This document shows, one piece after another, positions 15,418 through 16,180 of a DNA stretch of 64,000 nucleotides. A program made the translations under genes and the position numbers. The notes beneath the pieces were generated by a model. That model saw only the letters and a list, made by a program, of their open reading frames with translations. It was not told the origin of the DNA and did no database searches. Each line of letters opens with the position of its first letter. The first letter of the stretch is position 1. Origin of the DNA: the human T2T-CHM13v2.0 reference genome, Homo sapiens; the NCBI RefSeq assembly GCF_009914755.1, contig NC_060927.1. One strand, 5' to 3'.

Positions 15418-15581
15418 GTATTTTTTCTTTAAAGTGATTTGGTCCTTATTCCTTAAAAATCATACTTTTTGCCATAACTCCATATTTGCAAAGGAAGAAG
15501 ATGAAATGAAATAGTACTCTATAGTAAATATTTTATTCCAGTTACAAAATTACATACAAATGTGGCTTTTTATAAAAAGGT

Positions 15582-16180
15582 TTAATAGTTCCAAATTGGG
15601 CTGGGTGCGGTGGCTCATAGGCCGGGCACGATGGCTCATGCCTGTAATCCCAGCACTTTGGGTGGCCCAGGCGGGCAGATCACCTGAGGTCAGGAGTTCG
15701 AGACCAGCCTGACCAACATGGTAAAACCCTGTCTCTACTGAAAATACAAAATCAGCCAGGCGTGGTGGTATGTGCCTATGATCCCAGCTACTCGGGAGGC
15801 TGAGGCAGGAGAATCGCTTGAACCCGGGAGGCAGAAGTTGCAGTGAGCCAAGATCACACCACTGCACTCCGAACCTGGGCGACAGAGCGAGACTCTGTCT
15901 CAAAACAACAACAACAACAAAAGTTCCAAGTTAGCTGCTGCTTGGCACTAGCACAAAGACTGATCAATGAGGGTGTTCATCAGCACCGTCTGCCAAGCAT
16001 TATCTGCTTCTTATGAGAAAAAGGAAGCAATTGAACATAAGATTTTTCCTTCTTCTGGTGTGGCAAAAATTTTCTGGTACATGCAAAGTAGTTACATAAC
16101 AGCAAAGTTTTCTTTGTTAATGGACTAATATTAATCAGTAAAGTTTTTTTTTCCGTAACAATAACACAGAGTAGATATAA
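15582..16180 (-). pseudogene. RFC4-like 3' exon remnants
   Basis: Reverse complement of 15931-16010 reads EAD-CLADGADEH-LISLCASAKQQL (RFC4: EVDKCLADGADEHLQLISLCATVMQQL). TWNY* and the TAA (15582-15584) lie across an Alu. Weaker penultimate-exon similarity at ~16100-16180. Confidence 0.8.
15599..15922 (+). mobile_element. Alu with duplicated head, inserted in the RFC4 remnant
   Basis: TSD a(t/a)agttccaa(a/g)tt; (CAA)n tail. Confidence 0.95.

What the first reader, a model, noticed from the sequence alone, without database searches (positions are those of the whole stretch)
15420..16180. RFC4 fossil tail-to-tail with the EIF4A2 fossil: a duplicated two-gene block
Seen: removing the Alu at 15599-15922 reconstructs ...[25 protein letters not shown] on the minus strand, versus RFC4 ...CLADGADEHLQLISLCATVMQQLSQNC*, with the stop at the homologous codon. 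Known: EIF4A2 and RFC4 are convergent neighbours with abutting 3' ends. Inference: this was a DNA-level duplication, not retrotransposition. The site next to KLHL6 could even be the ancestral position, with the functional pair being the relocated copy.
Basis: partly seen in the sequence, partly recalled or inferred. Interest (0 to 1): 0.72.

Follow-up and report, generated by a model that had tools for sequence, protein, structure and literature searches.

The report
RFC4 fossil marks chimeric duplication junction
A broken copy of the end of the DNA-replication gene RFC4 lies tail-to-tail with a decayed copy of EIF4A2 whose promoter and first exon match a third gene, MCCC1; this patchwork likely marks the junction of a tandem duplication in early placental mammals and likely created the small-RNA host gene SNHG33.

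Summary
Observation confirmed. Without the Alu (15598-15921, 11-bp target-site duplication) the minus strand reads the RFC4 last exon, with the stop at the homologous codon. RFC4 exons 9-11 and intron 10 survive next to EIF4A2 intron 4 to 3' UTR with four snoRNA relics in order, so the copy was made at the DNA level. Coding sites decayed neutrally.

The block is larger than two genes. SNHG33's promoter and exon 1 are a copy of MCCC1's, and window 34.3-39.6 kb copies MCF2L2 introns. A chicken gene list runs FETUB, EIF4A2, RFC4, MCF2L2, B3GNT5, LAMP3, MCCC1. The MCCC1::EIF4A2 fusion is what a head-to-tail duplication of that segment would leave, later scattered by inversions (inferred). A cattle list has SNORA63 at this site.

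The 'ancestral site next to KLHL6' idea fails as worded: the fossil shows no trace of EIF4A2 exons 1-5, and the working pair keeps the FETUB/KNG1 and MCF2L2 flanks. The outgroup order rests on one unstranded gene list. MCF2L2 relics also show younger, likely gene-converted tracts.

The parts
5577..7450 (+). MCCC1-derived upstream region, CpG-island promoter and exon 1; now the SNHG33 promoter and exon 1 (7025-7182), whose donor is at the MCCC1 exon-1 donor position
   Evidence: 854 of 1291 aligned columns identical; score 453 against at most 138 for 3 other CpG promoters on both strands and at most 133 for 100 shuffles
9146..9707 (+). EIF4A2 intron 4 relic; start of EIF4A2 homology
   Evidence: 2 matches in the genome: itself and EIF4A2
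11131..11247 (+). EIF4A2 exon 6 relic (frameshifted, with a stop)
11278..11409 (+). SNORA63D, positional homolog of the intron-6 SNORA63 copy of EIF4A2
11781..11933 (+). EIF4A2 exon 7 relic; its donor is the SNHG33 exon-2 donor (that exon starts in an Alu at 11499)
11988..12123 (+). SNORA81 relic; homology ends at an Alu in the 3' hairpin
12583..12743 (+). EIF4A2 exon 8 relic (degenerate)
   Evidence: (E 8.1e-6)
13235..13365 (+). SNORA63E, homolog of SNORA63 in EIF4A2 intron 8
13433..13514 (+). EIF4A2 exon 9 relic = SNHG33 exon 3, with both splice sites at homologous positions
13553..13683 (+). SNORA4 relic, not in the annotation table; 53.1 bits, below the gathering score of 56
14173..15447 (+). 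EIF4A2 intron 10 (3' part), exon 11 and 3' UTR relic = SNHG33 last exon (14619-15433), with AATAAA at 15402 and 15412
15447..15597 (-). RFC4 3' end relic: stop codon at 15582-15584 and downstream sequence
15598..15921 (+). Alu inserted in the last codons of the RFC4 relic, with an 11-bp target-site duplication
15922..16010 (-). RFC4 exon 11 relic; two 1-nt deletions, acceptor AG changed to AA
16011..16176 (-). RFC4 intron 10 and exon 10 relic (30-nt deletion in the exon)
17739..17828 (-). RFC4 exon 9 relic; last detectable RFC4 homology
   Evidence: E 0.021; E 0.002
34290..37298 (+). MCF2L2 intron relics, inverted relative to the real MCF2L2; 63-75% identical
37629..39616 (+). Relic of the MCF2L2 intron before the last three exons, with much younger identity (84% and 93% to MCF2L2, 90% to the copy beside ADIPOQ); 3 copies in the genome

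Best explanation
The RFC4 relic is part of a dead, intron-containing copy of the EIF4A2-RFC4 3' ends that is fused to a copy of the MCCC1 promoter and exon 1, which likely marks the junction of a head-to-tail duplication of an ancestral EIF4A2-RFC4-MCF2L2-LAMP3-MCCC1 segment in early placental mammals. Shown: the relics, their order and strands (MCCC1' +, EIF4A2' +, RFC4' -, MCF2L2' +), neutral decay of the coding sites, and reuse of MCCC1 and EIF4A2 splice sites by SNHG33. Inferred: breaks in MCCC1 intron 1 and near EIF4A2 intron 4 left whole EIF4A2 and RFC4 in one copy and whole MCCC1 in the other. The junction copy had a housekeeping promoter but no EIF4A2 start, so it was non-coding from birth and persists as a spliced host for SNORA63 copies. 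The RFC4 duplicate lost its 5' exons and decayed, and an Alu entered its last codons later. At least two inversions then carried KLHL6...KNG1-EIF4A2-RFC4 with one MCF2L2 copy away from MCF2L2-LAMP3-MCCC1 and flipped the junction block. The RFC4 relic itself most likely does nothing.
For: Colinear chain from window 9146-17828 to G000:C3:189607183-189612456, same strand, with introns. Four snoRNA relics in EIF4A2 order. MCCC1 homology of the SNHG33 promoter and exon 1, the only other genome match. MCF2L2 relics in the window and beside the real RFC4 5' end, the latter with the last three exons; it lies where MCF2L2P1 is named next to ADIPOQ (PMC13702204, passages). Chicken GGA9 list: FETUB, EIF4A2, RFC4, MCF2L2, B3GNT5, LAMP3, MCCC1 (PMC12937304, table passage). 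Cattle list: KLHL6, SNORA63, MCF2L2, B3GNT5, LAMP3, MCCC1 (PMC7655849, passage). Goat and mouse have the working pair with KNG1 and ADIPOQ. K2P distance is 0.30 at 530 non-degenerate sites and 0.35 at 102 four-fold sites; the old blocks lie at 0.27-0.43, one age class.
Against: The ancestral order rests on one chicken candidate-gene list without strands or coordinates, which omits genes (its supplement had no occurrences); no marsupial, monotreme or amphibian order was found. No LAMP3 relic was found in window -12000..9000 against the part of the LAMP3 region held. There are four MCF2L2 3' copies, one more relic lying at window -10227..-7935 on the minus strand; a single duplication predicts two, so extra events are needed. 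The copies are not adjacent today. The junction interval 7450-9146 has no homology to either parent, so the breakpoints are not resolved. The fossil SNORA63 copies fold no better than shuffles (z -1.06 and -0.49, against -5.46 for SNORA63), which weakens the idea that they are what selection keeps.
Confidence: 0.68

Rival explanations
1. A mosaic segmental duplication: pieces of MCCC1, EIF4A2-RFC4 and MCF2L2 were copied here by separate or template-switching events around an inversion breakpoint, with no simple tandem stage.
For: Four MCF2L2 3' copies in both orientations. No LAMP3 relic found. Old-block distances spread from 0.27 to 0.43.
Against: All three donors are neighbours in the chicken list, and their relics keep the relative strands that a circular permutation predicts. 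The fossil starts inside an EIF4A2 intron just after an MCCC1 intron-1 relic.
Confidence: 0.2
2. One reading: this site is the original EIF4A2-RFC4 locus, a copy moved next to ADIPOQ, and the original decayed in place.
For: The site lies 19 kb from the MCF2L2 5' end (annotation table), and MCF2L2 follows RFC4 in the chicken list.
Against: The fossil faces MCF2L2 with its EIF4A2 side, not its RFC4 side. It shows no EIF4A2 promoter or exons 1-5 and uses an MCCC1-derived promoter. The working pair retains FETUB/KNG1 on one side and an MCF2L2 relic on the other. Non-degenerate sites diverged almost as much as four-fold sites, so there is no sign of a long coding life after the split.
Confidence: 0.07
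3. Retrotransposition of a readthrough or unspliced EIF4A2 transcript that ran into RFC4.
For: EIF4A2 has many retrocopies, and the two 3' ends abut.
Against: Introns 4, 6, 7, 8, 9 and 10 of EIF4A2 and RFC4 intron 10 are present over 8.7 kb, and MCF2L2 introns follow. Four of five retrocopies examined join exon 10 to exon 11, and the fifth joins another intron-10 segment to exon 11, while the fossil has the intron acceptor.
Confidence: 0.02

Closest known systems
Unprocessed (duplicated) pseudogenes, e.g. MCF2L2P1 beside ADIPOQ
   Same: Intron-containing, disabled, colinear with the parent locus. MCF2L2P1 (name seen in PMC13702204) appears to belong to the same event series.
   Different: No RFC4, EIF4A2 or MCCC1 pseudogene row is in the annotation table for this window. 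The relic is a multi-gene mosaic and part of it is a transcribed gene.
lncRNAs that are fossils of protein-coding genes (Hezroni et al. 2017, PMC5577775, passages read)
   Same: A spliced non-coding gene that reuses the promoter and splice sites of coding ancestors and lies at a synteny breakpoint.
   Different: Both parents survive. The paper covers only cases where the ancestral gene was lost and calls the duplication route much more difficult to quantify. SNHG33 combines two parents. LINC00888 and EIF4A2 do not occur in its main text or 4 supplements.
Chimeric genes at tandem-duplication junctions (e.g. Drosophila Sdic, human CHRFAM7A; recalled, no call)
   Same: The 5' part comes from the downstream gene and the 3' part from the upstream gene, joined through introns.
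   Different: The product is a non-coding snoRNA host, it is roughly 100 million years old (inferred), and the parental copies are now 0.35 and 3.35 Mb away.
Inverted duplications at staggered inversion breakpoints (Drosophila model; recalled, no call)
   Same: Duplicated sequence at both ends of an inferred inversion; the MCF2L2 copies are inverted relative to each other.
   Different: The EIF4A2-RFC4 copies are in direct orientation, so this model alone does not explain them.

Membership tests
Unprocessed pseudogene | Retains introns and splice-site context | tested here: met
   RFC4 intron 10 at 74% identity over 69 aligned sites; EIF4A2 introns 4-10 in part
Unprocessed pseudogene | Disabled reading frame | tested here: met
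   Frameshifts, stops, an Alu insertion and missing exons
Unprocessed pseudogene | No purifying selection on amino-acid sites | tested here: met
   K2P 0.30 (0.25-0.36) at non-degenerate sites against 0.35 (0.23-0.51) at four-fold sites, 8 exons pooled
Processed pseudogene | Exon-exon junctions without introns | tested here: not met
   The fossil has an intronic acceptor before exon 11; the control retrocopies do not
Tandem-duplication junction chimera | 5' part from one gene and 3' part from another, same strand, joined within introns | tested here: met
   MCCC1 exon 1 with its donor, then EIF4A2 intron 4 onward
Tandem-duplication junction chimera | Parents adjacent and co-oriented in the ancestral order, with the 5' donor downstream | tested here: inconclusive
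   The chicken list has the right order but no strands; one outgroup only
Tandem-duplication junction chimera | Copies still head-to-tail | tested here: not met
   The parents lie 0.35 Mb and 3.35 Mb away; later inversions must be assumed
snoRNA host lncRNA (SNHG) | Intronic snoRNAs between canonical splice sites | tested here: met
   GT/AG at all annotated SNHG33 junctions; Rfam SNORA63 scores 104 and 82.9 bits, gathering score 90
snoRNA host lncRNA (SNHG) | snoRNAs under constraint | tested here: inconclusive
   Core positions kept 75 of 85 and 76 of 86 against a 0.757 baseline, p about 0.003; but folding is no better than shuffles and 63D and 63E share changes
snoRNA host lncRNA (SNHG) | snoRNAs processed, dyskerin-bound and guiding pseudouridylation | not testable with these tools
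   The target of SNORA63E is listed as unknown in PMC7072173 (table passage)
lncRNA from a lost protein-coding gene (Hezroni class) | Ancestral coding gene lost from the genome | tested here: not met
   RFC4, EIF4A2 and MCCC1 coding exons are present elsewhere on the chromosome
Staggered-break inversion duplicate | Duplicates inverted relative to each other | tested here: not met
   The EIF4A2-RFC4 copies are direct repeats; the feature holds only for the MCF2L2 copies

The most novel reading that the evidence does not exclude
SNHG33 is a snoRNA host gene born in one step at a tandem-duplication junction: an MCCC1 housekeeping promoter driving EIF4A2's snoRNA-bearing introns, kept for about 100 million years for its SNORA63 copies. 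The same duplicates seeded the multi-megabase inversion that gave placental mammals their 3q27 gene order, and the scattered MCF2L2 relics have kept exchanging sequence by ectopic gene conversion into primate times.
Probability: 0.35. Interest if true: 0.7.

Novelty: new variant of a known kind. Interest (0 to 1): 0.52.

Why it matters
The RFC4 fragment alone is an ordinary unannotated pseudogene piece. Its context gives a sequence-level birth record for a non-coding snoRNA host gene from two housekeeping parents, a route that a survey of fossil lncRNAs set aside as hard to quantify. It explains why SNORA63 copies sit here and predicts MCCC1-like regulation of SNHG33. It also preserves, inside the human genome, a record of a pre-placental gene order. 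The 90-93% identical MCF2L2 tracts could confuse read mapping and are candidate recombination substrates at 3q27 (inferred).

Tried and rejected
Not found in the window: RFC4 exons 2-8 and promoter, and EIF4A2 exons 1-5, exon 10 and promoter (tblastn; nhmmer). The SNHG33 CpG island as an EIF4A2 or RFC4 promoter relic was rejected. The 35.7-39.6 kb matches as an interspersed repeat were rejected: the Alu-free parts have 2-3 copies in the genome; two searches that included Alus were swamped and uninformative. Matches at 16.9-17.4, 18.5-18.9, 20.1-20.5, 31.6-32.0 and 44.6-45.0 kb hit many places and were dropped as repeats. No LAMP3 relic was found (only the part of the LAMP3 region held was compared). 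MCCC1 was compared only over the 3.1-kb locus L029, so the extent of intron-1 homology stays open. Literature: 10 searches listed no paper describing SNHG33/LINC00888 as an EIF4A2 or MCCC1 paralog, or an RFC4 pseudogene here; most hits were seen as listings only. Term look-ups in PMC8178906 (main text) and PMC6158594 (1 supplement) gave 0 occurrences. The supplements of PMC4964923 could not be read and might hold chicken coordinates. PMC9226698 and PMC2653536 passages added only gene lists and that chicken EIF4A2 hosts snoRNAs in introns 3, 8 and 9. Genome-browser self-chain and GENCODE pseudogene tracks could not be checked.

Full report
Observation. Window 15925-16100 has one other match in the genome, G000:C3:189612011-189612106, which encodes RFC4 333-363. 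The Alu at 15598-15921 has an 11-bp target-site duplication with one mismatch. The empty site reads [16 protein letters not shown], with the stop aligned to the RFC4 stop; the score is 180 against a maximum of 52 in 354 control stretches. The exon has two 1-nt deletions and a broken acceptor. Three of ten RFC4 coding exons are detectable (9, 10, 11), with intron 10. Exon 9 is weak taken alone (E 0.002-0.02) but lies in the expected place and strand.

EIF4A2 side. Window 9146-15447 is colinear with EIF4A2 from intron 4 to the 3' UTR, on the same strand and 3.35 Mb away. Five of eleven coding exons are detectable (6, 7, 8, 9, 11); exons 1-5, exon 10 and the promoter are not. Four snoRNA relics lie in the parental order: SNORA63D, SNORA81 (cut by an Alu), SNORA63E and an unannotated SNORA4 relic. 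SNHG33 uses the EIF4A2 exon-7 donor, both exon-9 sites and the exon-11 acceptor. Five retrocopies examined as controls are 90-96% identical to EIF4A2 and lack intron 10 before exon 11; the fossil is 80% identical and has it. Retrotransposition is excluded. Pooled over 8 exons, non-degenerate sites (K2P 0.30) have diverged about as much as four-fold sites (0.35), as expected for a copy that was dead from about the time it arose. Poorly aligned exons may inflate both values.

The block is larger. The SNHG33 promoter and exon 1 match only one other place, G000:C3:185905542-185905659, which encodes the first 30 residues of MCCC1. The alignment holds 854 identities in 1291 columns and scores 453, against at most 138 for three other CpG promoters and 133 for 100 shuffles. 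The SNHG33 exon-1 donor sits at the MCCC1 exon-1 donor. Window 34.3-39.6 kb copies unique intronic sequence from the 3' part of MCF2L2. A further copy with the last three MCF2L2 exons begins about 2 kb beyond the real RFC4 5' end, where MCF2L2P1 is named in PMC13702204 (passages). A fourth piece lies at window -10227..-7935.

Outgroups. A chicken table lists, for GGA9 15.96-17.60 Mb...CHRD, FETUB, EIF4A2, RFC4, MCF2L2, B3GNT5, LAMP3, MCCC1 (PMC12937304, one passage). It gives no strands and omits genes. KLHL6, ADIPOQ and ST6GAL1 are on GGA9 (PMC4964923, passages) but are not in that list. A cattle list has KLHL6, SNORA63, MCF2L2, B3GNT5, LAMP3, MCCC1 (PMC7655849, passage), which suggests the relic predates the human-cattle split. 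Goat (PMC9601913) and mouse (PMC7889145) passages put the working pair with KNG1 and ADIPOQ. No marsupial, monotreme or amphibian order was found.

Mechanism (inferred). If the ancestral order was EIF4A2, RFC4, MCF2L2, LAMP3, MCCC1, a head-to-tail duplication with breaks in MCCC1 intron 1 and near EIF4A2 intron 4 creates exactly one new junction: MCCC1 exon 1 followed by the EIF4A2 3' half, then RFC4 and MCF2L2. That is the order and strand pattern in the window. The junction gene lacks the EIF4A2 start but has a CpG promoter and snoRNA introns. Reaching the human order needs an inversion of KLHL6...KNG1-EIF4A2-RFC4-MCF2L2P1 and a second, local inversion; the human order inside that segment is partly recalled. 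The local inversion may have split one MCF2L2 copy into the 34-39 kb piece and the -10 kb piece, which overlap in source by only about 1 kb. Old blocks differ by K2P 0.27-0.43. Against a recalled human-to-boreoeutherian branch of about 0.17, this points to the stem of placentals. Against the model: four MCF2L2 3' copies need extra events, no LAMP3 relic was seen, the junction interval is unresolved, and only one outgroup list supports the ancestral order.

The fossil cannot easily be the decayed original: it begins with a foreign promoter, faces MCF2L2 with the wrong end, and the working pair retains both chicken-type flanks. The pair likely did once neighbour MCF2L2, so 'relocated' is right only in the sense of a large inversion.

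Function. Nothing suggests a role for the RFC4 relic. For the host gene the evidence is mixed. Positions shared by the two parental SNORA63 copies are kept at 88% in both fossil copies against a 76% baseline (p about 0.003), and the 3' UTR is less diverged than coding sites (p 0.0009). But neither fossil snoRNA folds better than shuffles, and shared changes between 63D and 63E confound the test. PMC7072173 lists the SNORA63E target as unknown and treats the two snoRNA/host pairs separately (passages).

Younger layer. Inside the old MCF2L2 paralogy, sharply bounded tracts have K2P 0.07, 0.08, 0.11, 0.13, 0.18 and 0.19. Repeated ectopic gene conversion is the likeliest cause (inferred); a phylogenetic test was not possible.

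Novelty. Each ingredient is a known kind: unprocessed pseudogene, junction chimera, fossil-derived lncRNA. Ten searches of the open literature and look-ups in three relevant papers found no account of this origin. Subscription papers and browser tracks were not searched. Verdict: real, DNA-level, richer than first read; new variant of a known kind; interest 0.52.

Noticed in passing
window 37629-39616; G000:C3:185986063-185990628; G000:C3:189646415-189649603: Three-copy MCF2L2 3' sequence with tracts of 84-93% identity inside 60-75% paralogy, likely serial ectopic gene conversion. An Alu in the MCF2L2 copy is absent from the window copy. The tract overlaps the RefSeq enhancer at 38354-38889.
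   Followed up: partly
window -10227..-7935 (G000:C3:186237773-186240065), loci L020-L021: Fourth MCF2L2 3' relic, with a decayed third-last exon on the minus strand, just 5' of the MCF2L2 promoter.
   Followed up: partly
window 13553-13683: Unannotated SNORA4 relic, 53.1 bits, just under Rfam's gathering score.
   Followed up: partly
window 11278-11409 and 13235-13365: SNORA63D and SNORA63E share changes in the 5' hairpin that both parental copies lack, which suggests conversion between them.
   Followed up: no
window 9146-9707; L006:7183-7681: EIF4A2 intron 4 is 76% conserved in the fossil and has no Rfam match in either copy; it may be a constrained element in EIF4A2.
   Followed up: no
window 14760-15446: The 3' UTR relic is less diverged (K2P 0.18-0.19) than the coding exons (0.30): constraint or later conversion.
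   Followed up: partly
L035 (G000:C11:32221394-32222033): EIF4A2 retrocopy in which exon 11 is preceded by a segment from within intron 10 (recalled as the poison exon), not by exon 10.
   Followed up: no
window 11499-11933: SNHG33 exon 2 starts at an Alu-derived acceptor and ends at the EIF4A2 exon-7 donor.
   Followed up: partly
G000:C3:186041807-186045046 (L024): LINE-1-like ORF2 (identity recalled) with an open frame of about 1080 codons in an MCF2L2 intron.
   Followed up: no
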